Shown: positions 8,356 to 54,023, numbered from the stretch's first letter. The stretch: DNA of 54,023 bases from a virus (IMGVR_UViG_3300049788_000021:1-54023); one strand, 5' to 3'. The notes: generated by a model not told the origin, from the letters alone. Program-made: numbers and translations.

Positions 8356-8640
8356 ATGTGGATAAATCCCAACACCAACAAAGGCTGGACGGACGGAGAA
8401 GAAGCTATCTTCATGGAGATACAATCAGTAAGCAGACTTACGCGCATACAGTCGATCCACTTGTGGAAGCGTTTTTGGAAAAACTCCAAGAGGGCTGTGG
8501 TGGTTGCCAAGCGAGATTATCCTGCGTTTACGTCAAAGCAGAGAGCCAATTTCCAAAAGCAAGCGGAACGACTTCAGGGAGCACGTGACAAATCAATGCC
8601 ACATCAGCGCATTTGGCACAGCAGCGCACAATGCGGGTAA
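8356..8640 (+). CDS. Hypothetical basic protein
   Basis: ORF ending the rightward early operon. Confidence 0.55.
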   Translation: MWINPNTNKGWTDGEEAIFMEIQSVSRLTRIQSIHLWKRFWKNSKRAVVVAKRDYPAFTSKQRANFQKQAERLQGARDKSMPHQRIWHSSAQCG

Positions 8641-8714
8641 GGTCGAGGATTTCCTCATGCCATCAGTTTTGACCCCGTTGTAGGCAGAAACTTTGCCGAC
8701 CCCAGTATGGGGGG

Positions 8715-8795
8715 CTACTTGCGGAAATGTTCTTCCCATTCGCCCCACACCCAGGCTATCAGAATGCTCAACACCAATATCCCGAGGATCGTCAC
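8715..8795 (-). CDS. 26-aa membrane peptide (not in the ORF track)
   Basis: GAGGT SD then GTG; VTILGILVLSILIAWVWGEWEEHFRK; resembles 13535..13630. Confidence 0.55.
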   Translation of the reverse strand: MTILGILVLSILIAWVWGEWEEHFRK

Positions 8796-8894
8796 GTGGG
8801 CTACCTCGCCAACGGTCCACCGACTGTCGCGGTAAGACCGTTGACGCCATAGCCAACGACGTAGGCTACAGCTACCCCCTCGCGGGAGTGGACA

Positions 8895-9302
8895 CTAGCG
8901 CGAGAGGGAACTTGTCCGGACGCGTACCTCCCGGTACTGCGCAATGGTCTTTCGCGCTTCCTGGCACGCCTCGCGGATCATATCGTGGAAATAGCTCCCG
9001 CACCTGCCGCGCTCCCCGCGTGCCTCATACTCGCGGTTCTGCTGGCCACACTCGCGGTGGTCCATGAAATCCTCCAGCGATTTGTAGACGCAGTTGCCCA
9101 AATACGCCTCGCCTACTTTGTCGCCATGGTAATACACGGCAACATGCGCGACGAAGGCAATCAGTTCCCCATCGTCCAAACCCTTGGCCACCTCCCCGCT
9201 GTCGTCCCAGGAAATATCCAGGTCTTCTTCGGGGAAGGCCTGACAGATCACCGAAAAGTTTTTGGTTCTAAACTCGCGCATCAATCCAAGTCTCCGGTAC
9301 AT
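8895..9302 (-). CDS. Hypothetical protein
   Basis: ATG at 9302 downstream of the GGAGTGGAC motif. Confidence 0.75.
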   Translation of the reverse strand: MYRRLGLMREFRTKNFSVICQAFPEEDLDISWDDSGEVAKGLDDGELIAFVAHVAVYYHGDKVGEAYLGNCVYKSLEDFMDHRECGQQNREYEARGERGRCGSYFHDMIREACQEARKTIAQYREVRVRTSSLSR

Positions 9303-9391
9303 GGTTGTCCACTCCATTTACTAAGATTTAACTACGGGAACGAATGCTTCCCTTGCTCCGCGTCTGTCACCCACGGAGGATAGCGAAACAC

Positions 9392-9646
9392 TCACCTGGA
9401 CCTACTGCTGAAGTGCGGGCTGTGCAGCGCTAAGCCCAACACATACTCGACACAGTAGGCCAAGTACATGGGATCATTCTCCTGCCCCAGTGCCTTGTTG
9501 ATGCGTTCGAGGTTGGGTTTGATTATCAAGTCGGCAACACGTTGCGCGTAAGTTTTTCCGTCCGTGGTCCACTCCCCACGCCATATCTGCGCTGCCAGCA
9601 TGATTTCTTCTTCGCTCAAAAAGTCGTGCAAGCGGATGAGCTTCAT
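9392..9646 (-). CDS. Hypothetical protein
   Basis: Coupled to the upstream gene (ATGA). Confidence 0.7.
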   Translation of the reverse strand: MKLIRLHDFLSEEEIMLAAQIWRGEWTTDGKTYAQRVADLIIKPNLERINKALGQENDPMYLAYCVEYVLGLALHSPHFSSRSR

Positions 9647-10083
9647 GCGCGTATCCAGTACTCTACCCCGTCAAAGTCCGCGCTCATATAATCGGCCTTG
9701 AGCGCATCCGCCGCCGCTTCCCAGTCGATATGATCGTTTGGCCAGGAAGCGTTTTTGTCGATTGCGCCAATGTCTTCGGCAAGTTGCTGGGCGTACTCCT
9801 CGAAATAAGAGTCCCGAATGAGGGTTTCCCCGTGGTTCCAATCCGGCGAACCAGAGGCTTCTTCTTCGAGCTTTTCGAGCGCTTTCAGTTCGTTGTACTC
9901 GTCCTCGCCAAAGTCCACGGAAGAGGCAAAGGTCCTGCCGTCCGCAGCGGTGAGCATATCCTGATCGTCCGGATTTTCCGCCGCATCGTCGCGGTAGTCC
10001 TGCAGTTCGCGTATGCGGCGGATCACGTCTCGACTGTCGATTATGTCTTGACCGTTGTGTACTTCGTTTCTTGCTCTAATCAT
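9643..10083 (-). CDS. Highly acidic ArdA-like antirestriction/DNA-mimic candidate
   Basis: Very D/E-rich; C-terminal HIDWEAAADALKADYMSADFDGVEYWIR resembles the ArdA C-terminal motif. Confidence 0.55.
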   Translation of the reverse strand: MIRARNEVHNGQDIIDSRDVIRRIRELQDYRDDAAENPDDQDMLTAADGRTFASSVDFGEDEYNELKALEKLEEEASGSPDWNHGETLIRDSYFEEYAQQLAEDIGAIDKNASWPNDHIDWEAAADALKADYMSADFDGVEYWIRA

Positions 10084-10246
10084 GGTGTGTCCACTCCAGT
10101 TTAGTTTTTAGATTTTTGAGAGGGAGGTTGACGTACTCCCTCTCCGTGCTTGCAGTTGATGAGGCTGCTACGCTGGCCACATGGCGGGAGAAAACTCCCC
10201 GTTGCGGGGAAAGAGGTTTTCGTAACCATGCAGCAAGACCGTTGCC

Positions 10247-10441
10247 TTATTGGTTATCATCCTCCAGGCGTTCCAACCGTTTTTCATGCGCATGCACAAT
10301 CTTGGCCAAGTCGGCAACCAGTTGCGCCAGACTGGCCACCGCATTGGTTAATTGGCGCACCTCTTCAGTTAGCTTGGCTTCGTTTTGCAGCAACATCTCT
10401 AGGCCGCGCTCGAAACGATCCAATCGTTCTGTGTCGCTCAA
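10247..10441 (-). CDS. Small coiled-coil protein
   Basis: GGAGGA SD then TTG; heptad pattern ERLDRFERGLEML...HEKRLERLE. Confidence 0.6.
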   Translation of the reverse strand: MSDTERLDRFERGLEMLLQNEAKLTEEVRQLTNAVASLAQLVADLAKIVHAHEKRLERLEDDNQ

Positions 10442-10662
10442 TCTATCCTCCCTGGTCCTTTGGCGATTTCGGACCACGCTTCGTTGTGGTACTGGAAACA
10501 GGTGCCGCACTTTTTGCAGCCCGCCGTGTACAGTCCTGCTGCGCCACTGACAAAAAGAAATTGACGCCAATTGTGGTTGCCGCAAGGACAGAGTAGTTTG
10601 CCCTCCGCAATCTTGCGGCAGTCGTCGAAAAACTTCTGAGTTTTCTGGTCCATGGTGCTCAC
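10438..10662 (-). CDS. Small zinc-ribbon protein
   Basis: CPCG...CKKCG. Confidence 0.6.
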   Translation of the reverse strand: MSTMDQKTQKFFDDCRKIAEGKLLCPCGNHNWRQFLFVSGAAGLYTAGCKKCGTCFQYHNEAWSEIAKGPGRID

Positions 10663-10904
10663 TCGTTTTCGAGATGCTCCCAGAGCGCTTGCTCGCGCTT
10701 AGTACGCTCGCGCATCTCTTCTGCGGTGTACACTCCGCGTGTGTCGTACCACTCGCGCAGCGCTCCCCGGAAATACTCCACCATATCGGCGTCGATTAGT
10801 TCCTGCGAAGTGTCTTGAAAATGGATGACCACCTTTTCGCTACCACCCCGCAAACCTGCGGCAGGTTCCGCGTGCCATAGCACTTCAAAGATTAGCTTTG
10901 CCAT
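10659..10904 (-). CDS. Hypothetical protein
   Basis: ATG follows the GGAGTGGAC motif. Confidence 0.7.
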   Translation of the reverse strand: MAKLIFEVLWHAEPAAGLRGGSEKVVIHFQDTSQELIDADMVEYFRGALREWYDTRGVYTAEEMRERTKREQALWEHLENE

Positions 10905-11116
10905 TGGTCCACTCCTCGGCTAAAAATTTTTCCTTTCTCAGTATGCCCAACTTAACACGAAATTTTTTTGAAACGCCAGTATCAACATTAGCGTACGTAA
11001 CATATTGAGCGCTGGCCTGTTGCTCCCTGGCATGCTCCCCGGCGAGGTGCTCTTCCCTGGCCAGGGACGGACGCGGGAGAGGGATTGTCTCCCCTCTCGC
11101 GTCTCGCGTTTCCCGT

Positions 11117-11344
11117 TTACTTGTCTATCACCTCCAGAGACGCCGTGGATACCATGCAAATGAACCGTCCGGTGGACGGATCACCCACATAGCATTGACC
11201 CATGGTATTCTCGCGAGGTGCTCCAGGTAGACGGATCACTCGCACGGTTTGTCCCTTTTGCAAGGTATTCCCCTGGCACGGATGGAACACGTCCCAACCT
11301 ACTGGGGAATACTTATACAAACCATTTAGACGCACTTTTCTCAT
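11117..11344 (-). CDS. Hypothetical protein (possibly small beta-barrel)
   Basis: ATG at 11344 follows the CACAAGGGAGAAAA motif. Confidence 0.7.
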   Translation of the reverse strand: MRKVRLNGLYKYSPVGWDVFHPCQGNTLQKGQTVRVIRLPGAPRENTMGQCYVGDPSTGRFICMVSTASLEVIDK

Positions 11345-11454
11345 CGTTTGAGGTTTTCTCCCTTGTGATTTTATTTCGAGGTTACATCTCACCTCTGACG
11401 CGTCCCTCACGGATCACGCGAGGGACGCCTAGGCTGTGAGAGGTTTACCCTCCG

Positions 11455-11787
11455 CTAATCCCACACGGGACGAGCAGCCCTTGCGGTATAGTCGAACTCC
11501 CTGGCCACGTGCACCGTGTAGGTAGTATTGGCTTCGAGGTGTACCGTGCCATGTTCTTCGTGCACGATAGAAACGCCACGTTCCGATACTTTAACGATGG
11601 CATCCCCCCATGACGGACGGAACACCTCCGCGTCGGTTAACACCTCCACACGGTGGTGATGTCCGGTGGCCTCTCCCTCACGGATCACTCCGTCTGCTAC
11701 TTTGGCCCTTTGCAGGTAGTCCGTGTTGGTATCTATGGAATACTGTGGGATAAAAAGTAAATCACCTTGCCTAATTAAATTGGCCAT
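11455..11787 (-). CDS. His-rich RQGD/GExTGH protein (usual partner of DUF6745 proteins)
   Basis: RQGDLLF...EGEATGHHH...HEEH...REFD...PVWD. Confidence 0.7.
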   Translation of the reverse strand: MANLIRQGDLLFIPQYSIDTNTDYLQRAKVADGVIREGEATGHHHRVEVLTDAEVFRPSWGDAIVKVSERGVSIVHEEHGTVHLEANTTYTVHVAREFDYTARAARPVWD

Positions 11788-11883
11788 ACGATTGTCCACT
11801 CCTGATTTAGATTTACCTACTCGACACGTATTAGGTGTCTATTGCGCATCCAATCCGAAACGCACGGGATGCGCGATAGCTGC

Positions 11884-12849
11884 CTAAGTTTCTTGCGTCA
11901 ACTGGCCTAGATAGTCGGTAGTGTTGAACATCCAATCCAGGGCGGCAGACACGCTAGTGATGTTCGGGGGAACCATATTGAGATAAACTGCGCCAGTACT
12001 TGGACACGTCATCTTTAATCCCACTAAGGACTCACCATTCCACCTATCCGCACGGATCACTAAGCGGAGTAGAGCGTAGTCCTTGAGCGTGGCTACCGTT
12101 TCGGGATTGGCGTCTAGAAAAAACCGTTCCATCCCGTAGCACATCATTTTCGCCGTACGTATGGTGGTATTGTTTTCCGCAAGAATGCTTTGCACCGATA
12201 GATCACGGTACTTGTGCTCTTTTCGGATCACCTCGCATCCACACGTGTACTTGCCAATGGCCAAACGCCTAGCACGTCGAAAAGCACGGGAAAGTGTCTC
12301 GCAGTGGCGTCTCTCCCATCTTCCCTTGTTCGCATATTGGCATCCCGTGCGGATCACCTGGATGCCGCGTGATTTTCTCAACCAATAATTAGCGCGATTA
12401 ATCGGGCGCTTCTCCGCGTTCCGTTCTTCGCGTCTCGCGTCTCGATACTCTTGGACGTTTCCCCCAACTATGCTTCCGTCTGGATTAATGGTGGCGTCCG
12501 GATCACAGGTTACCTCCGGACCTTTCGGGTTGCGCCAGGAGCCACAGGAAAGCACGGTCATTCCGTCCGAGTTTCGCCTACTGCTCATAGGTTCCCCATG
12601 CACGGAATAATCGGAGGGTAGGTATTGGTTCATGCGATCATAGGTGGTCCGCGTGTGATAACCTCCGGTATTTACCTCTATGCTACCGTCTGAAAAGAAC
12701 GTGAGAATGTCCGTTTCATGTAGCAATACCGCGTAGGCATCCGGATCACCTGTGCCTTGTGTGCGTCTCTTTAGGTAGGTATTGTTGGCCAATCGTTTCG
12801 ACTGGGAACACCTCCCCACGAGAAGTTTGTTTGCCTCACTGTAGTTCAT
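11884..12849 (-). CDS. Protein with a C-terminal DUF6745-like domain
   Basis: LKMTCPSTGAVYLNMVPP...AALDWMF; N-terminal NTGGYHTRTTYDRMN domain. Confidence 0.65.
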   Translation of the reverse strand: MNYSEANKLLVGRCSQSKRLANNTYLKRRTQGTGDPDAYAVLLHETDILTFFSDGSIEVNTGGYHTRTTYDRMNQYLPSDYSVHGEPMSSRRNSDGMTVLSCGSWRNPKGPEVTCDPDATINPDGSIVGGNVQEYRDARREERNAEKRPINRANYWLRKSRGIQVIRTGCQYANKGRWERRHCETLSRAFRRARRLAIGKYTCGCEVIRKEHKYRDLSVQSILAENNTTIRTAKMMCYGMERFFLDANPETVATLKDYALLRLVIRADRWNGESLVGLKMTCPSTGAVYLNMVPPNITSVSAALDWMFNTTDYLGQLTQET

Positions 12850-12875
12850 CGTTTGTTTTTCTCCCTTGTGTTGGC

Positions 12876-12950
12876 GTCTCTCATCAGTGGCGAGTATCAC
12901 TCACCATACGTCCGGATCACGCGAGAACACCTCTCCGGACGTTTCGAGAC
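12876..12950 (-). ncRNA. Type II hammerhead ribozyme HH1
   Basis: Minus strand: GUCUC-GAAA-CGUCCGGA(loop)UCCGGACG-UA-UGGUGAGU GAU ACUCGCCA-CUGAUGA-GAGAC; complete core, three stems, GUA cleavage triplet. Confidence 0.93.
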
Positions 12951-13186
12951 TAGCGAGTTTCCCAGTACGCCAAATTGGCGAGCACGACGGATACGGTGTC
13001 TCCCTGCAGGGTACGGAGCACTAGCGTCCCGTTCTCGGGAACGAGCACCTCTGTTACGTCTGAAACTACACGGTCATTTTCCGCATTAACGAAATGAAGT
13101 ACGACGCGTACGGTTTTTCCGTCGTACTGCAGGCAATCGTGACACTCGCATTTTCCATACAGTGACTGTTTGTAATTGTGTTCCAT
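12950..13186 (-). CDS. 78-aa hypothetical protein bracketed by the two hammerheads
   Basis: AGGGAG SD; MEHNYKQSLYGKCECHDC...YWETR; the TAG stop overlaps the first base of HH1. Confidence 0.75.
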   Translation of the reverse strand: MEHNYKQSLYGKCECHDCLQYDGKTVRVVLHFVNAENDRVVSDVTEVLVPENGTLVLRTLQGDTVSVVLANLAYWETR

Positions 13187-13205
13187 TTTTTCTCCCTTGT
13201 GTTTT

Positions 13206-13264
13206 CCTCTCATCAGAGCACGTACCACGTGCTTACGTCCGGAGCACCTCCGGACGTTTCGAGG
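13206..13264 (-). ncRNA. Type II hammerhead ribozyme HH2
   Basis: Minus strand: CCUC-GAAA-CGUCCGGAG GUG CUCCGGACG-UA-AGCACGU GGU ACGUGCU-CUGAUGA-GAGG; complete core, GUA triplet. Confidence 0.93.
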
Positions 13265-13265
13265 T

Positions 13266-13538
13266 TTAATCGTACATGCCGCGTACTTCGTTAGCCCATC
13301 CAATTGGATCATTCTCACGCGTGCAACTGTCGCAAACATAATGGTGGCGTCCCTTGTACGCGGAAATAGGTGCGCCGCATTGTGGACAGGTGAACCGTGA
13401 TCCACTACGCGGAGGTGTGGGAACACCGGAGAAACATTCCTTACACTTTCCCTCGTGTTCCCTGGCAAAATGTTTGGTGGTAATCCCCTGGCAAGAGATG
13501 CAATTGGTTTGATATTTCGAGAACTGAGAACGGATCAC
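13266..13538 (-). CDS. Double zinc-finger protein
   Basis: GGAGG SD then GTG; CISC, CKEC, CPQC and CDSC. Confidence 0.65.
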   Translation of the reverse strand: MIRSQFSKYQTNCISCQGITTKHFAREHEGKCKECFSGVPTPPRSGSRFTCPQCGAPISAYKGRHHYVCDSCTRENDPIGWANEVRGMYD

Positions 13539-13630
13539 TCCGCACCTCCGTCCCGATAGTGTTCTTCCCATAGACCAATTACATACGGTAGGTAGAACAA
13601 GAGAAAAACGAAACCAAGTAATTGGATCAC
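13535..13630 (-). CDS. 31-aa membrane peptide (not in the ORF track)
   Basis: VIQLLGFVFLLFYLPYVIGLWEEHYRDGGAE; GTGA overlaps with both neighbouring genes; GGAGG SD. Confidence 0.65.
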   Translation of the reverse strand: MIQLLGFVFLLFYLPYVIGLWEEHYRDGGAE

Positions 13631-13977
13631 TGCGCACCTCCGTCGTTCGAGGTGAGCATGAGCATGCTAGCGAAATAGTTCTCTTTGTCCGGATCACGTC
13701 CCTCTGCGATAGCCTTACACTTGCGCTTAGCTATCTCATACCGTATTGAGGTGTAATTGCAGAGACACTCTCCGGAGTTTAACGCCGTAAGTTTGTAGAG
13801 AAACAAGGTAACGATGGGATGAGTGTTAACGTAGTCCGTCCCGCGTCCGCGTTCCCTGGCATGCTCCCAAACTACAAGCAATACCTGCTCTGCTAGCGTG
13901 TGGATCACTCCGCTAGCATTGCACGCGTTCTGTACGTCTAACGCGAGTTTTGCCGCTAACTGCAAAGTAATTGTCAT
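13627..13977 (-). CDS. Hypothetical protein, first gene of the leftward operon
   Basis: AGGGAG SD; LALDVQNACNASGV...NTHPIVTLF. Confidence 0.75.
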   Translation of the reverse strand: MTITLQLAAKLALDVQNACNASGVIHTLAEQVLLVVWEHARERGRGTDYVNTHPIVTLFLYKLTALNSGECLCNYTSIRYEIAKRKCKAIAEGRDPDKENYFASMLMLTSNDGGAQ

Positions 13978-14071
13978 TCGTTTGTTTTCTCCCTGGTAAA
14001 GTGCGCCTCGCGTCCCGGTCGAGTTATCACCTCAACCCTGAAAATGAGACGCCTAGATATAGCTGTATAGC

Positions 14072-14100
14072 AGTGTAACACAGAACGAAAATATTTTCAA
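14072..14100 (-). promoter_or_regulatory. Sigma70-type promoter of the leftward early operon
   Basis: TTGAAA-17 bp-TACACT with an extended -10 TG and A/T-rich upstream sequence. Confidence 0.7.
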
Positions 14101-14538
14101 CACCTCGGAAAATGACAATACAGCAAAGAGAAAAACAAGAGGAAAAAAAGATAAGATAAGCTTAATATGTATTGCCAGTAAACACGCGAGAACGTTTTAC
14201 GAGGGAAAATGCGTTTCGCGTCCCTGGTATTTGCGTCTCTCACCTCGCGTCCCTGGCATCTCTCGAACGAGCACGGGACGGATCACCTCCGGGCGCATCC
14301 GTGTTGGTATCATTAGTGACTACAGGGACGGACGCCACCGGACGCAAGTGTAACTCGCGAATGTACTTACTGATAACGTTAATCGGTTTGTAAAACCGAC
14401 GTGCTGCCTATACGTACGGGTAATTGTATACGTACTGGTACGGGAACCCCATCCCATCAGAGCAAGGCCCGCCCCGTTTAGATCGGGCCTGGGCCGCTCG
14501 CTATTGCTAGGCCTTCATCCTCACTTCTTCCCTTTTTT

Positions 14539-14572
14539 TGCCCAACTTGTCTTGTAATACCATGCCCAACTT
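14539..14572 (-). promoter_or_regulatory. Two direct copies of the AAGTTGGGCA motif, 24 bp apart
   Basis: TGCCCAACTT at 14539 and 14563; the same core recurs near 3514, 10944, 21051, 26036 and 44162. Confidence 0.55.
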
Positions 14573-14728
14573 GTTAGAGTTTGGTTTTGCTGTTAGGGTA
14601 TTTTGCTTAATACGTCGTCATGGTGAAGTAGTGGAGGGAGGAGGGCTGCAGGGGGTTTTTGCTTTTTTGCTGTTGAAGCATTTTTTCCTTTTTAGTTCTT
14701 CTGCCTTTTTTTTCTCTGGTGAGGTGGT

Positions 14729-15034
14729 TTGGGGGTGGTGAAGATGGGCTGGTGGGCCAGCGAAGCGGCGGATGAGTTTTGGCGCAAGTGGCACAAGCCG
14801 GGGAGTGCTGAGGCGCGGACGGAGGAGATGCGCAGAGCGTTACGCGAGAGTGTGTCGTGTTTAGAGGAGTGTGCCACGTTGTTAGCGGAGATGGTGATGC
14901 GCTTTGGGGATCACGTGATATTGGATGATACGTTGGAGGGGGCCACGGAGTGGAAGTTCAGCGAAGGGGTGAAGATGTATTTTGCGAAGGCCAAGGAGAT
15001 GAGGGAGAAGTGGGAGTTGCCGGAGGATGAATGA
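14729..15034 (+). CDS. Hypothetical protein
   Basis: First ORF of the rightward accessory region. Confidence 0.55.
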   Translation: MGVVKMGWWASEAADEFWRKWHKPGSAEARTEEMRRALRESVSCLEECATLLAEMVMRFGDHVILDDTLEGATEWKFSEGVKMYFAKAKEMREKWELPEDE

Positions 15035-15599
15035 AGTTTTGCGATTTCGTTTTTTCTTTTTTTTTGCTAGTGGTTTTTTTTACGCTCCTGAGTTTTACCG
15101 TGTAGTGATCGAGTGCAATTTGAACTGAGCGAACCAATGATGAGTGAGAAGTGGCCGCATCATCCGTGGGAGCAGAGTTTTGATGGGGGCGCAGTGAGCG
15201 ACAAGCCAAAAACGGAGGCTGAAGTAGAAGACTACTTAGAGGATAACAATCTTTGCGTATGTGACCATCGCAAGCGTTCGCACCACTATCGTAGCGAGCG
15301 TTGCATGATCCCTGCTTGTGGCTGCACCAGATATGATGAAGTGGAAGCCGTGAGCGAGCGAGCGAAGGAAGTAGCGCGGGAGTTGATGCAACAGGTAGAT
15401 AGATACCTCAAGGGTGAGATTGGTGGTACAGAGCTACGCGAGCGCATCGCCGCAGCCATCGACGCGGCGGTAGCGGAGCAGCGGGAGCGGAGCAGCGGGA
15501 GCGGATGGAAGCATTGGTTGCCAAGTGGCGTGATGAGACAGACTATCATGCCCAGTGTGCTAACGAGTTGGCCGCAGCCATTCGCCAGAACGGGCGTGG

Positions 15600-21072: not shown

Positions 21073-22899
21073 TTGTGGTTCTTTCTCGCATGTACGATGT
21101 TTCCTCGACATTCTGCCCAGGTGAACTGGTTAGACCGATCCCGGCAACTGATTGAGCGCCTTCCGATAAAACACATTGAAACGCACCGCATGGTGCCCTT
21201 TGTGTTCAATCCTAATCAGGCGCGGCGCTACAAAATGATCCGTGAGCAATGGGACAAAGAGCACAAACTACGCATTTTGGATTTGAAATCCAGGCGCGTG
21301 GGAGTGTCGGCGCAAACCGATGCGCTGTTATGGGCTTACGGTTTGGCTTTCCCGAACATGAACATCAAGATCGTGGCCCATCTGGTGGGCAGCGCTGAAG
21401 AACTTTTCCGTGTGCCGTCCGACCTGTCCCGCGCTTTTCCTTCTTTTGCTGCTGCGGACATTCAGATGAAGCGTATTTTCTTCCCGCATACCGGAGGGCA
21501 AAGCCAAATTACCTTGGCTACGGCGGGAACACCCGCAGCGGGGCGTGGTGGAACTTTGTCGGCACTACATCTGAGTGAAGCTGCGTATTTTCCTTCCGAC
21601 GACTCCTTTGTGTCCATGATTTCCTCTGTTTCTAAAGGTCCTGGCAGTATCATCGTGATTGAAAGCACCGCCAACGGACGCGAGGGACCAGGGCAAGCCT
21701 TTTTCGAGTACTGGGAGTCTGCCGTGGCAGGACGCAATGGCTACCTGCCCATCTTTCTCTGCTGGCTGGACGATCCGCTGTGTATCCGCAATGAAGAAGA
21801 AGCCGAAGACGCCCCGCAAGACGATCTTGAAAAAGAACTTATGGGGCCACCGTTCAACGCCACGCGAGAGCAGATCGCCTGGATGCGCCGCACCAAAGCG
21901 GACGACTGCCGAGGCATCGAAAGCAAATGGCTTACTGACTTTCCGCATCATCCCTCCGTGGCCTTCCAAGTAAGCGGTGAACCTGCTTTCCCGCGAGATG
22001 AACTGACCTACGCGGAGTCTACCGTCAAGCCGCCGATTTGCCGGGGCCGTTTCATCCGCACGGGCGGGACGGGTTATCGCTTCGTGAAGGATGACAACGG
22101 TCCCTGGCATATCTGGAAATTTCCTTTCGATGACCACAAACGTGCGGACGGCTTTCGTTACTACGGCGGCGCAGACGCCGCGCTGGGCACCGAGGAAGGC
22201 GATTTCGCCGCTATTTGCATTCTTTGCGGACAAACCGGGGAGCTTGCCGCACGCTTCAGCGAGCGTGTTCCTCCGGAGGAACTGGCCAACCAGATGGATA
22301 TGAGCGGCAGGTTCTACAACGTAGCCATGATGAACCCGGAACTTACGGGAAACTTGGGTCGCTGGGCGCTCATCAAGCTGCGCGACATGTTCCGCTACCC
22401 CAACATTTATGTATGGAAGGGCCGCGACGACCGCAAACGCTTCAAGCACAAGTCTGTGGCGCTGGGCTTTGAAATGAACCAAGCCACCCGCCGCTTGATT
22501 ATTGACGCCACCCGGAATGGTTTGCGCATGGGCATTCGCGGGGAGCCGGGAGCCTTGGTAGTGAACGACCGCACCTTGATGGAGCAGCTAGGACTTTGCA
22601 CCTTGAAGGAGTGGCGCTGGGAAGTGGAGCGCGGCCACGATGACATTGCCGTAGCCTACTTCATTGCTTGTCTGACGCGTGAACAGTATCCTCCTCCGCG
22701 TATGACCTTCGCACCTAAGACCACCCTAGAGGAACAAGGGCCGCAGCAGATCGCCCAGAGCGCCGGGGTGCGCCTCGCGCCCAGTGAAACCGATCAGATT
22801 TTCTACAAGGAAATGCAGCGTATCCGCCGCGAAGCAGGATTGCGTCCGGATATGCGCGGAGTGGGGAGGCCGTCGATCAATCGACTGTACGGGATATGA
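21073..22899 (+). CDS. terL: Terminase large subunit
   Basis: LKSRRVGVS (Walker A), LHLSEAA (Walker B), IESTANG coupling motif, GADAALG and HDDIAVA nuclease motifs. Confidence 0.93.
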   Translation: MWFFLACTMFPRHSAQVNWLDRSRQLIERLPIKHIETHRMVPFVFNPNQARRYKMIREQWDKEHKLRILDLKSRRVGVSAQTDALLWAYGLAFPNMNIKIVAHLVGSAEELFRVPSDLSRAFPSFAAADIQMKRIFFPHTGGQSQITLATAGTPAAGRGGTLSALHLSEAAYFPSDDSFVSMISSVSKGPGSIIVIESTANGREGPGQAFFEYWESAVAGRNGYLPIFLCWLDDPLCIRNEEEAEDAPQDDLEKELMGPPFNATREQIAWMRRTKADDCRGIESKWLTDFPHHPSVAFQVSGEPAFPRDELTYAESTVKPPICRGRFIRTGGTGYRFVKDDNGPWHIWKFPFDDHKRADGFRYYGGADAALGTEEGDFAAICILCGQTGELAARFSERVPPEELANQMDMSGRFYNVAMMNPELTGNLGRWALIKLRDMFRYPNIYVWKGRDDRKRFKHKSVALGFEMNQATRRLIIDATRNGLRMGIRGEPGALVVNDRTLMEQLGLCTLKEWRWEVERGHDDIAVAYFIACLTREQYPPPRMTFAPKTTLEEQGPQQIAQSAGVRLAPSETDQIFYKEMQRIRREAGLRPDMRGVGRPSINRLYGI

Positions 22900-50818: not shown

Positions 50819-51247
50819 ATGGAACCGAAACCTTACAACGATATGGATGCCGCAGACTTGCTGGCACTCTGTGTGTGGCGCGAAAGCCGGGGCGAGCCGG
50901 ATGCCGGGAAGCTGGGTGTGGCCTACAGCGTCATAAACCGCGTGCAGCGGCCCTGCTGGTGGGGCAATACCATCCATACGGTGGTGTTGAAACCCTATCA
51001 ATATTCTTCGTTTAATCCAGATGATGTGAATGCTGATTTGTGGCCGCAGGATGATGATCCCTCGTGGAAAGCCAGTCAAGAAGCCGCCCAAGCAGCTATT
51101 GGAAACGAACCCGATCCCACCGAGGGAGCTACGCACTACCACGCCACGGACATTGATTTCCCAAAAGGGTGGGGAAACATTGCGGAGTATCAGCAAACGC
51201 TTTTGGTCAGTGGTCATGTTTTTTACAAGTACTTGGGGAAACCCTAA
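50819..51247 (+). CDS. Endolysin, SleB/Hydrolase_2 cell-wall hydrolase
   Basis: LALCVWRESRGE...VAYSVINRV...QYSSFN...DPTEGATHYH...HVFY. Confidence 0.9.
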   Translation: MEPKPYNDMDAADLLALCVWRESRGEPDAGKLGVAYSVINRVQRPCWWGNTIHTVVLKPYQYSSFNPDDVNADLWPQDDDPSWKASQEAAQAAIGNEPDPTEGATHYHATDIDFPKGWGNIAEYQQTLLVSGHVFYKYLGKP

Positions 51248-51262
51248 AAAGGAGCACAACGT

Positions 51263-51865
51263 ATGAAATATCTCTGCGTCATAGAAGTACTCAATCAAGT
51301 CGATGGTCCACCGTCAGGAGGACCTCCAGGTATCTGGGGTCCACCTGGACCGTGGCCCACACCACCAATCTACTTGCCACCGGGAGGAGGAGGAGGAACA
51401 CCTCCGGGGATTTGGGGTCCTCCAGGTCCATGGCCAACTCCACCGATCTATCTGCCTCCAGGTCCATGGCCAACTCCACCGATCTATCTGCCACCGGGAG
51501 GAGGAACACCTCCAGGGGCACCGGGAGTTCCAACGTTCCCGATCTGGGGTCCTCCAGGTTTCAATCCACCAGGACCAGGGTATCCACCAGGGATTGGTGG
51601 TGGCCCAGTTATCCCGCCAGCGCCCGACGCGCCTCCAGGCACGCCAGCACTGCCGATCTGGCCTCCTCCGGGGATCAGTCTTCCGCCAGTTCCGGGTTAT
51701 CCGCCCGTGGCGCAACATCCCATCGTGTTACCGGGACCGCCCACGGCACCACCACCGTCAGAGGGCATCAAGCCCCCTCCTCCGGGTGGTGGGTGGGGCT
51801 ATCATCCAGATTTTGGCTGGGGCTATTTTCCAGGTGGTGGCGGAAAACCAGTTCCTCCAGGCTAA
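51263..51865 (+). CDS. Proline/glycine-rich repeat protein
   Basis: AAGGAG SD; PPGIWGPPGPWPTPPIYLPPG repeats. Confidence 0.75.
   Translation: MKYLCVIEVLNQVDGPPSGGPPGIWGPPGPWPTPPIYLPPGGGGGTPPGIWGPPGPWPTPPIYLPPGPWPTPPIYLPPGGGTPPGAPGVPTFPIWGPPGFNPPGPGYPPGIGGGPVIPPAPDAPPGTPALPIWPPPGISLPPVPGYPPVAQHPIVLPGPPTAPPPSEGIKPPPPGGGWGYHPDFGWGYFPGGGGKPVPPG
51421..51492. repeat. Perfect 36-bp tandem duplication
   Basis: TCCAGGTCCATGGCCAACTCCACCGATCTATCTGCC twice. Confidence 0.9.
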
Positions 51866-52949: not shown

Positions 52950-54023
52950 CTACACCCCCCTCATGGCTTTGATCTTCTGTTGTTCGCTCTTGCGGCGCGT
53001 AGCAATCTTCACCATAGCCTCGCGCAGGTCGGCGTCGTCGGTAATGTCGTAGCGCCACAGCATGCTGTCGGTTTCGTGTCCGGTGATTTTCATAGCCACT
53101 TTAGTGGGCACCCCGGCGCGGATCAGGTTGCGAGCAGCACTGCGCCGCAGATCGTGGAAGATGCGTCCATGGTATTGGCAAGCCCTGCCACAGTGTCGTT
53201 TCTCCGCACCCTGGTGCCCGCAGACGCGGCAAATCATCTTGCCCAAGCCGATGGCTATACAAGCAGTGTGCCATGCCTTGCGGAACTCGCAGATAGGATC
53301 ACCGTCGCGGTGGAACACCCACTGCGAGAGCACCACACCTTTGTCGGTTTTGATGGAACGTGCCTTCCTGCGGCGTTCCATGATGGCAGCTAATTCCGGG
53401 TGAATGTCAAAAGGGATGTGGTAGGGACGGTCGTTCTTGCTGTTCTTGCTGCGCAGCCGGATGGTGTCCTCTTCCACATCGTTCCAAGTAAGCGTACTGA
53501 TGGCATTCAAGCGCCAGCCGATGATGTAGCCGAAATGCACGAAGTCGCGCAGATCATCATCCGGCAACCACTTCAGCAAGGTATCAATTTCCAGGTCGTT
53601 GAAGAAACCCTCGCGCACCGTCGCAGCTTTCAGGTCAGGCATTACTGGTGCAGGGACTTTGGCAAGCTCGAACGCCTGGATGAGCACCTGTAAGCGATTG
53701 CGGATGGTGCTGTCGGCGTAACCGTCCTGGCGCATATCCTTGCGATAGTCCTTGAGCGTTTGGTCGGTGATGACGTTGGACATTCTGGTGCCAAAGGCTT
53801 CTTTCACCAGGGCGAAGAGGCTCAAGTTTTCCGTGGTGTCGATGCCGCGCTCCTGGTAGTCCTCTTGCAGGTTGTCAAGCAACTGCCCAACGGTTTGCGG
53901 TTCCGCTTGGGGCTGTTCTTTCGGATCGACAATGCCCTTTTCGGCGCGAAGATATTTGGCGTGCTCCCCGGCCAACATTTGCATTGCCGCTTTTTCACTT
54001 TTCTTGGTGCCGTCGTTCTCAAT
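52950..54023 (-). CDS. int: Tyrosine integrase, C-terminal part
   Basis: Catalytic motifs GWR, SKN, FHDLRRS, TGH and RY; adjacent to a tRNA-derived att core. Confidence 0.95.
   Translation of the reverse strand: MENDGTKKSEKAAMQMLAGEHAKYLRAEKGIVDPKEQPQAEPQTVGQLLDNLQEDYQERGIDTTENLSLFALVKEAFGTRMSNVITDQTLKDYRKDMRQDGYADSTIRNRLQVLIQAFELAKVPAPVMPDLKAATVREGFFNDLEIDTLLKWLPDDDLRDFVHFGYIIGWRLNAISTLTWNDVEEDTIRLRSKNSKNDRPYHIPFDIHPELAAIMERRRKARSIKTDKGVVLSQWVFHRDGDPICEFRKAWHTACIAIGLGKMICRVCGHQGAEKRHCGRACQYHGRIFHDLRRSAARNLIRAGVPTKVAMKITGHETDSMLWRYDITDDADLREAMVKIATRRKSEQQKIKAMRGV
53897..54023. repeat. Terminal direct repeat, copy 2 (circular assembly overlap)
   Basis: Identical to 1-127. Confidence 0.95.

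What the first reader, a model, noticed from the sequence alone, without database searches (positions are those of the whole stretch)
11178..14290. Strand-polarised GGATCAC motif, 15 copies in 3.1 kb
Seen in sequence: GGATCAC occurs on the plus strand at 11178, 11233, 11411, 11682, 12054, 12225, 12351, 12500, 12743, 12914, 13532, 13624, 13691, 13902 and 14280; 13 of these are CGGATCAC. About 0.2 copies would be expected at uniform base composition. I saw only one reverse copy in this interval (about 13397) and roughly half a dozen plus-strand copies in the remaining 50 kb. It falls in two reading frames (VIR and xDP), in stop/start overlaps, in RNA loops and upstream of the promoter, so selection acts on the nucleic acid rather than the protein. 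Inferred options: a Chi/KOPS-like polar signal near the first-injected end; an array of protein-binding or methylation sites; or mRNA pairing with the 16S 3' end (GGAUCACCUCC, matched fully at 14280-14290).
Basis: partly seen in the sequence, partly recalled or inferred. Interest (0 to 1): 0.8.

Follow-up and report, generated by a model that had tools for sequence, protein, structure and literature searches.

The report
One-strand octamer array in phage operon
A soil phage has written one exact eight-letter DNA word about 15 times, always on the same strand, into a single 3-kb operon by bending its own protein sequences, which marks a selected directional signal whose reader is still unknown.

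Summary
GGATCAC occurs 15 times on the + strand between 11178 and 14286, with 1 reverse copy. On the minus strand the word is an octamer, GTGATCCG: 13 exact copies where 0.06 are expected.

The array fills one leftward operon (g1-g7, 13977-11117). The word therefore lies on the sense strand and in the mRNA.

- It falls in reading frame 0 (8 copies), frame 1 (4) and non-coding RNA (3).
- Codon-aware shuffles do not reproduce it.
- In g5 it replaces residues that homologues do not share, once through a 2-residue insertion.
- One-mismatch and wobble variants are not enriched.
- 23 loci carrying g5 homologues lack any such array.

My ranking:
- Stoperator-like array of sites for a sequence-specific protein: 0.33
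- Chi-like exonuclease signal: 0.22
- RNA tag for a nuclease or binding protein: 0.15
- Pairing with the 16S 3' tail: 0.13

Unchecked notes from this scan list similar octamer arrays in other uncultured phages. I found one more here: L011, 29:0.

The parts
14279..14290 (-). Copy 1 of the word (octamer 14279-14286). This is the only copy extended to the full 12-mer GGAGGTGATCCG. It lies about 310 nt upstream of the g1 start.
   Evidence: No significant local fold (z -0.48). It lies upstream of the sigma-70-like match at 14100-14072 and downstream of two leftward AGTTGGGCA elements.
13901..13908 (-). Copy 2, in g1, frame 0 (V-I-H), with A at position 8.
13690..13697 (-). Copy 3, in g1, frame 1 (R-D-P).
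13623..13630 (-). Copy 4. It supplies the GTG start of g2 and overlaps the TGA stop of g1. A at position 8. GGAGGTG lies 4 nt upstream.
13531..13538 (-). Copy 5. It supplies the GTG start of g3 and overlaps the TGA stop of g2. GGAGGTG lies 4 nt upstream.
12913..12920 (-). Copy 6, non-coding. It spans the end of the loop and the 3' arm of stem III of the second hammerhead-like fold.
12742..12749 (-). Copy 7, in g5, frame 1 (G-D-P), in a loop that varies among homologues.
12499..12506 (-). Copy 8, in g5, frame 1 (C-D-P).
12350..12357 (-). Copy 9, in g5, frame 0 (V-I-R). At this place 11 of the 14 homologues that have residues there read D-R.
12224..12231 (-). Copy 10, in g5, frame 0 (V-I-R). Not conserved in homologues.
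12053..12060 (-). Copy 11, in g5, frame 0 (V-I-R). It sits in a 2-residue insertion relative to 20 of 21 aligned homologues; the remaining one has one extra residue.
11681..11688 (-). Copy 12, in g6, frame 0 (V-I-R). Preceded by CGGA, so a CGGA-GUGA-UCCG hairpin is possible.
11410..11417 (-). Copy 13, non-coding. It is centred on the 5-nt loop of a 12-bp hairpin between g6 and g7.
   Evidence: -35.1 kcal/mol, z -4.9.
11232..11239 (-). Copy 14, in g7, frame 0 (V-I-R).
11177..11184 (-). Copy 15, in g7, frame 1 (G-D-P).
13397..13403 (+). The single reverse copy, which reads GGAUCAC in the operon mRNA, inside g3.
11117..13977 (-). The operon that carries the array:
- g1 13977-13627 (116 aa)
- g2 13630-13535 (31 aa)
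- g3 13538-13266 (90 aa, zinc ribbon)
- g4 13186-12950 (78 aa)
- g5 12849-11884 (321 aa, weak DUF6745 match)
- g6 11787-11455 (110 aa)
- g7 11344-11117 (75 aa)
   Evidence: ORFs and starts. Families. g5 homologues.
14072..14100 (-). Sigma-70-like promoter match (TTGAAA, 17 nt, TACACT, with TG before the second hexamer) upstream of g1.
   Evidence: This is a consensus match only: 3 matches were found in the region against 5.4 in shuffles.
11070..11103 (-). Long hairpin just after g7, at the downstream edge of the array.
11024..14256 (-). Further same-strand words that share the array's bounds:
- GAGGTG: 15 copies, of which only 2 are the ribosome-binding sites of g2 and g3
- GCCAGGG and CCAGGGA: 8 copies each, read as A-R-E, as C-Q-G and in non-coding DNA
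- GAGACGC: 7 copies

Best explanation
The octamer is a cis-acting recognition word for a sequence-specific protein, phage-encoded or host, that acts on this one leftward operon in the direction of its transcription. The closest working model is the stoperator array of Cluster A mycobacteriophages. There, a protein bound at asymmetric sites that all point with transcription blocks or throttles RNA polymerase, so the operon is silenced (for example in the lysogen) or timed.

Shown here:
- the word is exact and asymmetric
- it is co-oriented with one transcription unit and confined to it
- it is imposed on coding sequence against protein conservation
- it is specific to this lineage

Inferred:
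- that it reads DNA and not the mRNA
- that the effect is a block to elongation
For: - The word is exact. Information sits only at positions 1-8, and there are no enriched one-mismatch or wobble variants.
- The octamer occurs 14 times on the minus strand and once on the plus strand genome-wide. 13 of the 14 lie in 3.1 kb.
- The array's bounds match one operon. The next leftward gene block (8.9-10.9 kb) has a single copy.
- The word is written into three unrelated contexts and both usable reading frames. 8 of 10 V-I dipeptides and 4 of 5 D-P dipeptides of the operon carry it.
- In g5 it replaces non-conserved residues, once through a 2-residue insertion.
- 23 loci with full or nearly full-length g5 homologues (30 to 51% identity) show no comparable array. 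This fits a reader that co-evolves with its sites.
- The phage is temperate, with an integrase.
- Other polar words share the same bounds. Among them are two CCAGGGACGCGA copies, 29 bp apart, upstream of the promoter match, as if the segment were a regulatory field.
- Published stoperators are asymmetric, number up to about 30 per genome, and predominantly point with transcription (PMC6550527, passages read; PMC9283540, abstract read).
Against: - No reader was found. None of the roughly 48 proteins scanned matches a repressor of the L5 gp71 kind.
- The 290-aa helix-turn-helix protein and g1 have no sequence match in the PDB. The g5 model has no fold match at E <= 0.001, 0 of 375.
- The word is 8 bp, not 13 bp.
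- The sites are confined to one operon and not spread over the genome.
- No copy overlaps the predicted promoter.
- Nothing here separates reading on DNA from reading on RNA.
- The word is the exact complement of part of the 16S 3' tail (recalled consensus), a coincidence this model leaves unexplained.
- A density of one site per 210 bp is far above that of stoperators.
Confidence: 0.33

Rival explanations
1. Chi-like signal. The octamer, read as CGGATCAC on the + strand, is the host's recognition word for RecBCD or AddAB. An exonuclease entering a DNA end to the right of the array would be switched off or turned recombinogenic, as in phages with terminally clustered Chi sites.
For: - It is an exact octamer with strong strand bias, 14:1.
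- It is embedded in genes in every frame that is free of a stop codon.
- There is a published precedent. E. coli phage LLS has 20 active against 3 inactive Chi sites concentrated near its right end, and Pseudomonas phage MD8 has 32 against 0. Abundance correlates with lack of an anti-RecBCD gene (PMC12315714, section 6 and passages read).
- With terminase placed at the left, the array sits at about 82-87% of the map. The + strand word is in the orientation the paper calls active for entry from the right.
- The phage has RecE-like and RecT-like genes, but I recognised no anti-RecBCD gene.
Against: - The array stops 6.8 kb short of the terminase gene, and the octamer does not occur in that stretch.
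- Its bounds coincide with an operon.
- Outside the array the heptamer shows no polarity: 6 against 5.
- Three other unrelated words share the same bounds.
- Two scans of IMG/VR for three spaced copies found only tandem or local repeats. Together they returned 50 distinct stretches (24 in the first; 35 in the second, 9 of them already seen), and none was a dispersed array.
- The host is unknown. The only lead is a weak hint to Acidobacteriota. The genome ends are also unknown.
Confidence: 0.22
2. RNA tag. GUGAUCCG in the operon's mRNA is the target of a sequence-specific endoribonuclease or RNA-binding protein that shuts the operon off or processes it. The recalled analogue is T4 RegB, which cuts a short word in early mRNAs.
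For: - The word is on the sense strand and confined to one transcription unit.
- It is exact.
- Two of the three non-coding copies sit in or at hairpin loops.
- Across copies the first four letters tend to be unpaired and the last four paired, with mean unpaired probability 0.40-0.76 against 0.14-0.52.
- CGGA precedes the word in 3 of 15 copies, which would make a four-base-loop hairpin.
- The operon is rich in processed RNA: two hammerhead-like folds.
Against: - Overall accessibility of the word equals background, 0.425 against 0.424, p 0.48.
- There is no common structure.
- No candidate nuclease was found in the family scans.
- Copy 14280 lies upstream of the only sigma-70-like promoter match.
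Confidence: 0.15
3. Pairing with the ribosome. The mRNA word pairs with the 16S rRNA 3' tail just 5' of the anti-Shine-Dalgarno core. It would tether 30S subunits along the message as standby sites, stabilise the mRNA, or soak up ribosomes.
For: - The heptamer is the exact complement of seven letters of the 16S tail (recalled consensus) and lies on the mRNA strand.
- The four most enriched heptamers and the four most enriched hexamers of the operon all tile one 12-mer, the window's own 14279-14290.
- On the sense strand GGAGGT, GAGGTG, AGGTGA and GGTGAT occur 8-15 times each, against 0.14-0.27 per kb in the rest of the genome. Only 2 of the 15 GAGGTG copies are real ribosome-binding sites.
- Strong predicted duplex sites with the tail are 7 to 12 times denser on the operon's sense strand: 16 at -15 kcal/mol or below, against 0.43-0.69 per kb elsewhere.
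Against: - Position 8 is G in 13 of 15 copies, including 3 of 3 non-coding copies and 4 of 4 free third codon positions. The tail consensus (recalled) would call for A.
- The best-kept 3' letters would pair with bases that I recall as lying inside helix 45, while the extension towards the accessible core is not conserved.
- No wobble variant occurs more than once.
- The AGG that precedes 4 of 15 copies is no more frequent than expected, given how common AGGTG is in this operon (my reasoning).
- Relatives show no such enrichment.
- Another phage's array, L011, uses an unrelated word.
- The duplex-density count is not independent of the word itself.
Confidence: 0.13
4. Epigenetic sites. The word is the target of a DNA methyltransferase or a methylation-sensitive binder, since it contains GATC, and methylation controls the operon.
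For: - 16 of the 19 GATC sites in the interval lie in the word.
- The second polar word contains CCAGG.
- Exact recognition is typical of modification enzymes.
Against: - No methyltransferase was recognised in the proteins scanned.
- GATC is not unusual genome-wide: 182 against 207-219 expected.
- A palindromic core gives no reason for strict polarity.
Confidence: 0.05
5. Passive origin. The 3.3-kb module was acquired from a genome in which these words are common, and they have no function here.
For: - Four words share the same sharp bounds.
- G+C content of the segment is 0.50-0.53, against 0.54-0.58 for most of the genome.
Against: - This only moves the question to the donor.
- The word was created inside g5 after its divergence from all 21 aligned homologues.
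- Both amino-acid choice and codon choice are bent towards it.
- No donor-like array was found.
Confidence: 0.05

Closest known systems
Stoperators of Cluster A mycobacteriophages (L5 gp71-type immunity repressor; PMC6550527, PMC9283540)
   Same: Many copies of one asymmetric, nearly invariant word in a temperate phage, predominantly oriented with transcription, mostly away from promoters and specific to the lineage.
   Different: The sites here are 8 bp and not 13 bp. They are confined to one 3.1-kb operon at one site per 210 bp, where stoperators number about 30 spread over the genome. Most lie inside genes. No copy sits on a promoter, and no cognate repressor was found.
Terminally clustered Chi arrays of lambdoid phages (LLS, MD8; PMC12315714)
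   Same: An exact octamer with extreme strand bias (20:3 and 32:0 there, 14:1 here), written through genes and clustered in one part of the genome.
   Different: The word is not a known Chi, and the host is unknown. The array ends 6.8 kb from the terminase gene and matches an operon's bounds. There is no polarity outside the array.
Shine-Dalgarno pairing with the 16S 3' tail, including stabilising SD-like elements (recalled)
   Same: The sense-strand word is complementary to the 16S tail, and SD-like words are enriched with it.
   Different: 13 of 15 copies are not placed before a start codon. The conserved part pairs 5' of the anti-SD core. Position 8 does not fit, and no wobble variants occur.
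Same-strand octamer arrays in early regions of other uncultured phages, noted earlier in this scan (unchecked AI notes), and L011 found here
   Same: Exact 7-9-letter words in tens of same-strand copies, written through genes in several frames, with a different word in each phage. L011 has GCGACGG at 29:0 over 14 kb in all three frames.
   Different: Those notes place the arrays at the start of early arms and, for one family, beside a SprT-like zinc-ribbon gene. No SprT-like gene is present here.

Membership tests
Stoperator/operator array (Cluster A mycobacteriophages) | Asymmetric site of about 13 bp | tested here: not met
   The word is asymmetric, but information is confined to 8 positions. 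The 13-bp figure is from PMC6550527.
Stoperator/operator array (Cluster A mycobacteriophages) | [quoted passage not shown] | tested here: met
   15 sense copies against 1 antisense copy in the operon.
Stoperator/operator array (Cluster A mycobacteriophages) | Sites distributed throughout the genome | tested here: not met
   13 of 14 minus-strand octamers lie within 3.1 kb of a 54-kb genome.
Stoperator/operator array (Cluster A mycobacteriophages) | Some sites are true operators within the early promoter | tested here: inconclusive
   No copy overlaps the sigma-70-like matches at 14118-14072. The real promoters are unknown.
Stoperator/operator array (Cluster A mycobacteriophages) | Cognate monomeric repressor with a helix-turn-helix domain plus a second DNA-binding domain | tested here: inconclusive
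   No family match was found. The 290-aa helix-turn-helix protein has no sequence match in the PDB. Binding was not tested.
Chi array of phages (LLS/MD8 type) | The word is the host's RecBCD/AddAB recognition sequence | not testable with these tools
   The host is unknown (weak hint only).
Chi array of phages (LLS/MD8 type) | Strong bias to one strand | tested here: met
   Octamer 14:1 genome-wide.
Chi array of phages (LLS/MD8 type) | Concentration towards the DNA end that is open to the exonuclease | tested here: inconclusive
   The ends are unknown. The array lies 6.8 kb from the terminase gene, and the octamer does not occur in that gap.
Chi array of phages (LLS/MD8 type) | Absence of an anti-RecBCD function | tested here: inconclusive
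   RecE-like and RecT-like genes are present. No Gam-like protein was recognised, but many small genes have no family.
Shine-Dalgarno / anti-Shine-Dalgarno pairing | Complementarity to the 16S 3' tail | tested here: met
   7 of 7 letters against the recalled consensus. The host's own 16S was not seen.
Shine-Dalgarno / anti-Shine-Dalgarno pairing | Placed a few nucleotides upstream of a start codon | tested here: not met
   13 of 15 copies are internal or non-coding. The other 2 are themselves start codons.
Shine-Dalgarno / anti-Shine-Dalgarno pairing | Tolerance of wobble pairs and of different registers along the tail | tested here: not met
   Wobble variants occur 0-1 times each. Other registers such as GAGGTG are enriched separately.
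Hammerhead ribozyme, type II (the two elements flanking g4; noted in passing) | Three-way junction with the conserved core letters and a cleavage triplet | tested here: inconclusive
   Both fold into the expected junction (z -3.4 and -5.2), and I read the core letters. Rfam gave no match, even at E <= 10.

The most novel reading that the evidence does not exclude
The operon's mRNA is deliberately written with about 28 sites complementary to the 16S rRNA 3' tail: 15 GUGAUCC and 13 further GAGGUG. Phage transcripts would then tether or soak up 30S subunits along their whole length. This would be a ribosome-capturing message that works outside start sites and next to self-cleaving ribozymes.
Probability: 0.12. 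Interest if true: 0.85.

Novelty: new variant of a known kind. Interest (0 to 1): 0.62.

Why it matters
A phage has paid a visible price to keep one exact word on one strand of one operon: altered residues, a 2-residue insertion and forced codons. That price marks a strong directional signal with an unknown reader.

If the word is a protein-binding array, it extends the stoperator idea far beyond mycobacteriophages. The array would be much denser, limited to one operon and built from 8-bp sites. If it is Chi-like, it would reveal the recombination hotspot word of an uncultured soil host. If it pairs with 16S rRNA, it would be a new way for a phage message to handle ribosomes.

Similar arrays with other words keep turning up in uncultured phages: L011 here, and unchecked notes of this scan. 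A common explanation would therefore cover many genomes.

Tried and rejected
**Protein-level repeat.** Rejected. Two frames are used, non-coding copies exist, and the residues are not conserved in g5 homologues.

**Codon-usage by-product.** Rejected for this window. It is the likely explanation for the TGTCGAG 8:0 cluster in relative L008, where, from the ORF coordinates, all eight copies sit at the same codon phase.

**Restriction-site avoidance or GATC effects.** GATC occurs 182 times against 207-219 expected, and 16 of the 19 sites in the interval belong to the word. There is no general effect.

**Common RNA structure around the word.** Accessibility equals background.

**Known RNA families.** There were no matches at gathering scores in the whole window. 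At E <= 10 in 8500-15500 there were only three chance-like matches.

**Relatives.**
- No DNA match in the phage collection.
- The portal protein has no match there. It has only two short IMG/VR contigs at 63-65% identity.
- The g5 protein alone found nothing in IMG/VR.
- The alignment of g5 homologues found 80 IMG/VR, 80 metagenome and 4 genome loci. Of these I treated 23 as full or nearly full-length and scanned 2 to 2.5 kb on each side. All 82 loci (358,276 bases) hold the heptamer 25 times on one strand and 23 on the other.
- The neighbour gene 9643-10083 led to 5 loci, none of which shares any other gene.

**Same word elsewhere.** Two IMG/VR scans for three spaced copies returned 24 and 35 stretches, 9 of them shared. 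By their spacings all are tandem or coding repeats or CRISPR-like arrays. One family of 7 contigs has 4 copies within about 180 bp of a GATC-rich stretch. These scans would catch only a minority of dispersed arrays.

**Fold of g5.** The model is confident (pLDDT 86.9), but there is no PDB match at E <= 0.001.

**SprT lead from earlier notes.** No SprT-like domain is present. The one zinc-ribbon match has E 0.26.

**Sequencing runs.** Only the probable source run holds the stretch, and no RNA holder is listed. Its single contig covers 9000-22000 without a break. This gives no evidence on genome ends or on expression.

**Literature.**
- GGATCAC with 'phage': 0 papers.
- GTGATCC with 'motif': 2 unrelated papers, seen as a listing only.
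- I found no description of this word as a signal in those two searches.
- Supplementary files of the cited papers were not opened. Supplemental Fig. S5 and the supplementary tables of PMC12315714 may bear on how tightly Chi sites cluster.

**Statements that rest on recall, not on a call.**
- the 16S tail consensus and its numbering
- helix 45 pairing
- T4 RegB

Full report
**What the window is.** The window is a whole virus record of 54,023 bases. Its first and last 127 bases are identical, so it is a circular assembly and its true ends are unknown. IMG/VR classes it as having direct terminal repeats and as 100% complete.
- It encodes a tyrosine integrase at 52950-53984.
- RecE-like, RecT-like, primosomal and RusA-like genes lie on the + strand at 4.1-8.4 kb.
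- A large terminase lies at 21073-22899, and a cell-wall hydrolase at 50819-51247.
- It has no tRNA gene.
- It has no DNA relative in the phage collection.
- A feature search with the integrase points weakly to Acidobacteriota. This is a lead only.

**The observation.** There are 15 + strand copies of GGATCAC from 11178 to 14280 and one reverse copy at 13397. Six + copies and five reverse copies lie elsewhere. The total is 27, against 6.0 +/- 2.8 in shuffles.

Read on the minus strand, the word is an octamer. Position 8 is G in 13 copies and A in 2. No flanking position carries more than 0.7 bit. For the 3.2-kb interval, 0.06 octamers are expected and 13 are seen, a corrected p of 4e-21. Genome-wide the octamer occurs 14 times on the minus strand and once on the plus strand. 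A sliding scan of the whole genome finds no other array of this strength. The next best is a coding repeat at 51.3-51.9 kb.

**Where the copies lie.** The interval is one leftward operon. I read it from the sequence and ORF lists:
- g1 13977-13627
- g2 13630-13535
- g3 13538-13266 (weak zinc-ribbon match)
- g4 13186-12950
- g5 12849-11884
- g6 11787-11455
- g7 11344-11117

The word is therefore on the sense strand and, if transcribed, in the mRNA as GUGAUCCG.
- Eight copies are in frame 0 (V-I-R, V-I-Q, V-I-H). Two of these are the GTG starts of g2 and g3, each overlapping the previous TGA stop.
- Four copies are in frame 1 (x-D-P).
- The third frame would read TGA and is used only at those two gene junctions.
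- Three copies are non-coding.

The next leftward genes (8.9-10.9 kb) hold a single copy.

**Selection on the nucleic acid.** With the proteins held fixed and synonymous codons shuffled, the coding sequences give 2.2 copies on average, at most 8 in 1000 trials. With codons permuted within genes they give 0.17, at most 2. Twelve copies are observed. So both amino-acid choice and codon choice are bent. 8 of 10 V-I dipeptides and 4 of 5 D-P dipeptides carry the word.

In an alignment of g5 with 21 homologues (42-56% identity by the alignment), none of the five motif sites is conserved. Most homologues read V-D-R where this phage reads V-I-R. One copy sits in a 2-residue insertion absent from 20 of the 21; the other has one extra residue. 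One-mismatch variants are not enriched. Wobble variants occur 0 or 1 times each.

**Relatives.** g5 has 37 homologues in the protein collection, the best at 51% identity. I used pattern scans instead.
- In 23 loci with full or nearly full-length homologues, no word reaches anything like the window's score.
- The best is TGTCGAG 8:0 in L008, corrected p 2e-4. All eight copies share one codon phase (ORFs), so I read that cluster as a codon effect.
- The heptamer is at chance level in 358 kb of relatives, 25 against 23.
- Two IMG/VR scans for three spaced copies of the octamer found only tandem or local repeats.

The array is therefore specific to this lineage as far as I could see. By my estimate, those scans would miss most dispersed arrays.

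One distant IMG/VR contig, L011, shares only the N-terminal domain of g5. It carries GCGACGG 29 times on one strand and never on the other, over 14 kb, in all three frames, starting 268 bases from the contig end. Unchecked notes from this scan list several more arrays of this kind in other uncultured phages, each with its own word. One of those notes ties an array to a SprT-like gene. No such gene is present here.

**Other words in the same segment.** On the sense strand and within the same bounds (11.0-14.3 kb):
- GAGGTG occurs 15 times. Only the copies before g2 and g3 are ribosome-binding sites.
- GCCAGGG and CCAGGGA occur 8 times each, read as A-R-E, as C-Q-G and in non-coding DNA.
- GAGACGC occurs 7 times.

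The four most enriched heptamers and the four most enriched hexamers of the operon all tile one 12-mer, the window's own 14279-14290. Relatives show none of this.

**RNA context.**
- The copy at 11411 is centred on the 5-base loop of a 12-bp hairpin (z -4.9).
- The copy at 12914 lies in stem III of a fold that, like its partner at 13200-13268, forms the three-way junction of a type II hammerhead (z -3.4 and -5.2). Rfam does not score either.
- The copy at 14280 has no significant fold.
- Over all 15 copies, predicted accessibility equals background, 0.425 against 0.424. The first four letters tend to be unpaired and the last four paired.
- Copy 14280 lies about 215 bases upstream of the only sigma-70-like match (such matches are fewer here than in shuffles). 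It lies downstream of two leftward copies of AGTTGGGCA, an element that also precedes other operons. Whether this copy is transcribed remains open.

**Explanations.** I weighed six.

(a) *A stoperator-like protein-site array, 0.33.* It fits the exactness, the polarity with transcription, the operon bounds, the lineage specificity and the temperate lifestyle. The published system has asymmetric 13-bp sites, up to about 30 per genome, pointing with transcription (PMC6550527, passages; PMC9283540, abstract). Against it: the sites are 8 bp, they lie in one operon only, none sits on a promoter, and no reader was found.

(b) *A Chi-like signal, 0.22.* Phage LLS has 20 against 3 and MD8 has 32 against 0 oriented Chi octamers, concentrated near the right end (PMC12315714, section 6 and passages). 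With terminase at the left, this array is at 82-87% of the map and in the orientation that paper calls active. Against it: a 6.8-kb gap to the terminase gene in which the octamer does not occur, bounds that match the operon, no polarity elsewhere (6 against 5), and an unknown host and unknown ends.

(c) *An RNA tag for a nuclease or binder, 0.15.*

(d) *Pairing with the 16S tail, 0.13.* The identity of the word and the tiling words speak for it. Position 8, the lack of wobble variants, the conserved end falling (from recall) inside helix 45, and the unrelated words of other arrays speak against it.

(e) *Methylation, 0.05.*

(f) *Passive origin, 0.05.*

**Verdict.** The feature is real and strongly selected, and it belongs to one operon's sense strand. 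Its reader is unknown. I file it as a new variant of known kinds of oriented word arrays (stoperators, Chi arrays), not as a member of either, because defining features of both were tested and not met or could not be tested.

Noticed in passing
window 13200-13268 and 12872-12955, minus strand: Two hammerhead-like three-way junctions (type II layout) flank g4. Each starts right after a stop codon. Both fold as expected (z -5.2 and -3.4), but Rfam gives no match even at E <= 10.
   Followed up: partly
window 11024-14256, minus strand: Three further same-strand words share the array's bounds: GAGGTG (15 copies, 2 of them real ribosome-binding sites), GCCAGGG and CCAGGGA (8 each, read as A-R-E and C-Q-G in unrelated genes) and GAGACGC (7). 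Two CCAGGGACGCGA copies lie 29 bp apart upstream of the promoter match.
   Followed up: partly
L011:268-13911 (IMG/VR contig of 44,950 bases): GCGACGG occurs 29 times on one strand and never on the other, over 14 kb, in all three reading frames, starting 268 bases from the contig end. The contig shares only the N-terminal domain of g5 with the window.
   Followed up: partly
window 3515, 21052, 44163 (+) and 10944, 14539, 14563 (-): AGTTGGGCA precedes several operons in their own direction. Two tandem leftward copies lie upstream of the operon studied here, so it may be a promoter or activator element (compare note e1-6338745).
   Followed up: partly
window 11884-12849, minus strand (g5): A 321-aa protein with a widespread phage N-terminal domain, a basic cysteine-rich middle and a weak DUF6745 match. 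The model is confident (pLDDT 86.9), but no solved structure resembles it at E <= 0.001.
   Followed up: yes
window 51323-51854, plus strand: CCTCCAGG occurs 7 times on one strand inside the 200-aa gene at 51263-51865. This is probably a proline- and glycine-rich coding repeat.
   Followed up: no
L214:4696-5409 and six sister contigs (L191, L193, L195, L196, L202, L212): A GATC-rich stretch of about 400 bases holds 4 copies of the same octamer at conserved spacings (28, 69 and 84 bases), with a fifth copy 532 bases away. It could be an origin or operator region of an unrelated phage family.
   Followed up: no
window 14400-14440, plus strand: Two near-repeats of TATACGTAC followed by GG and TA lie in the 730-base non-coding gap between the divergent operons. 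They may be regulator binding sites.
   Followed up: no
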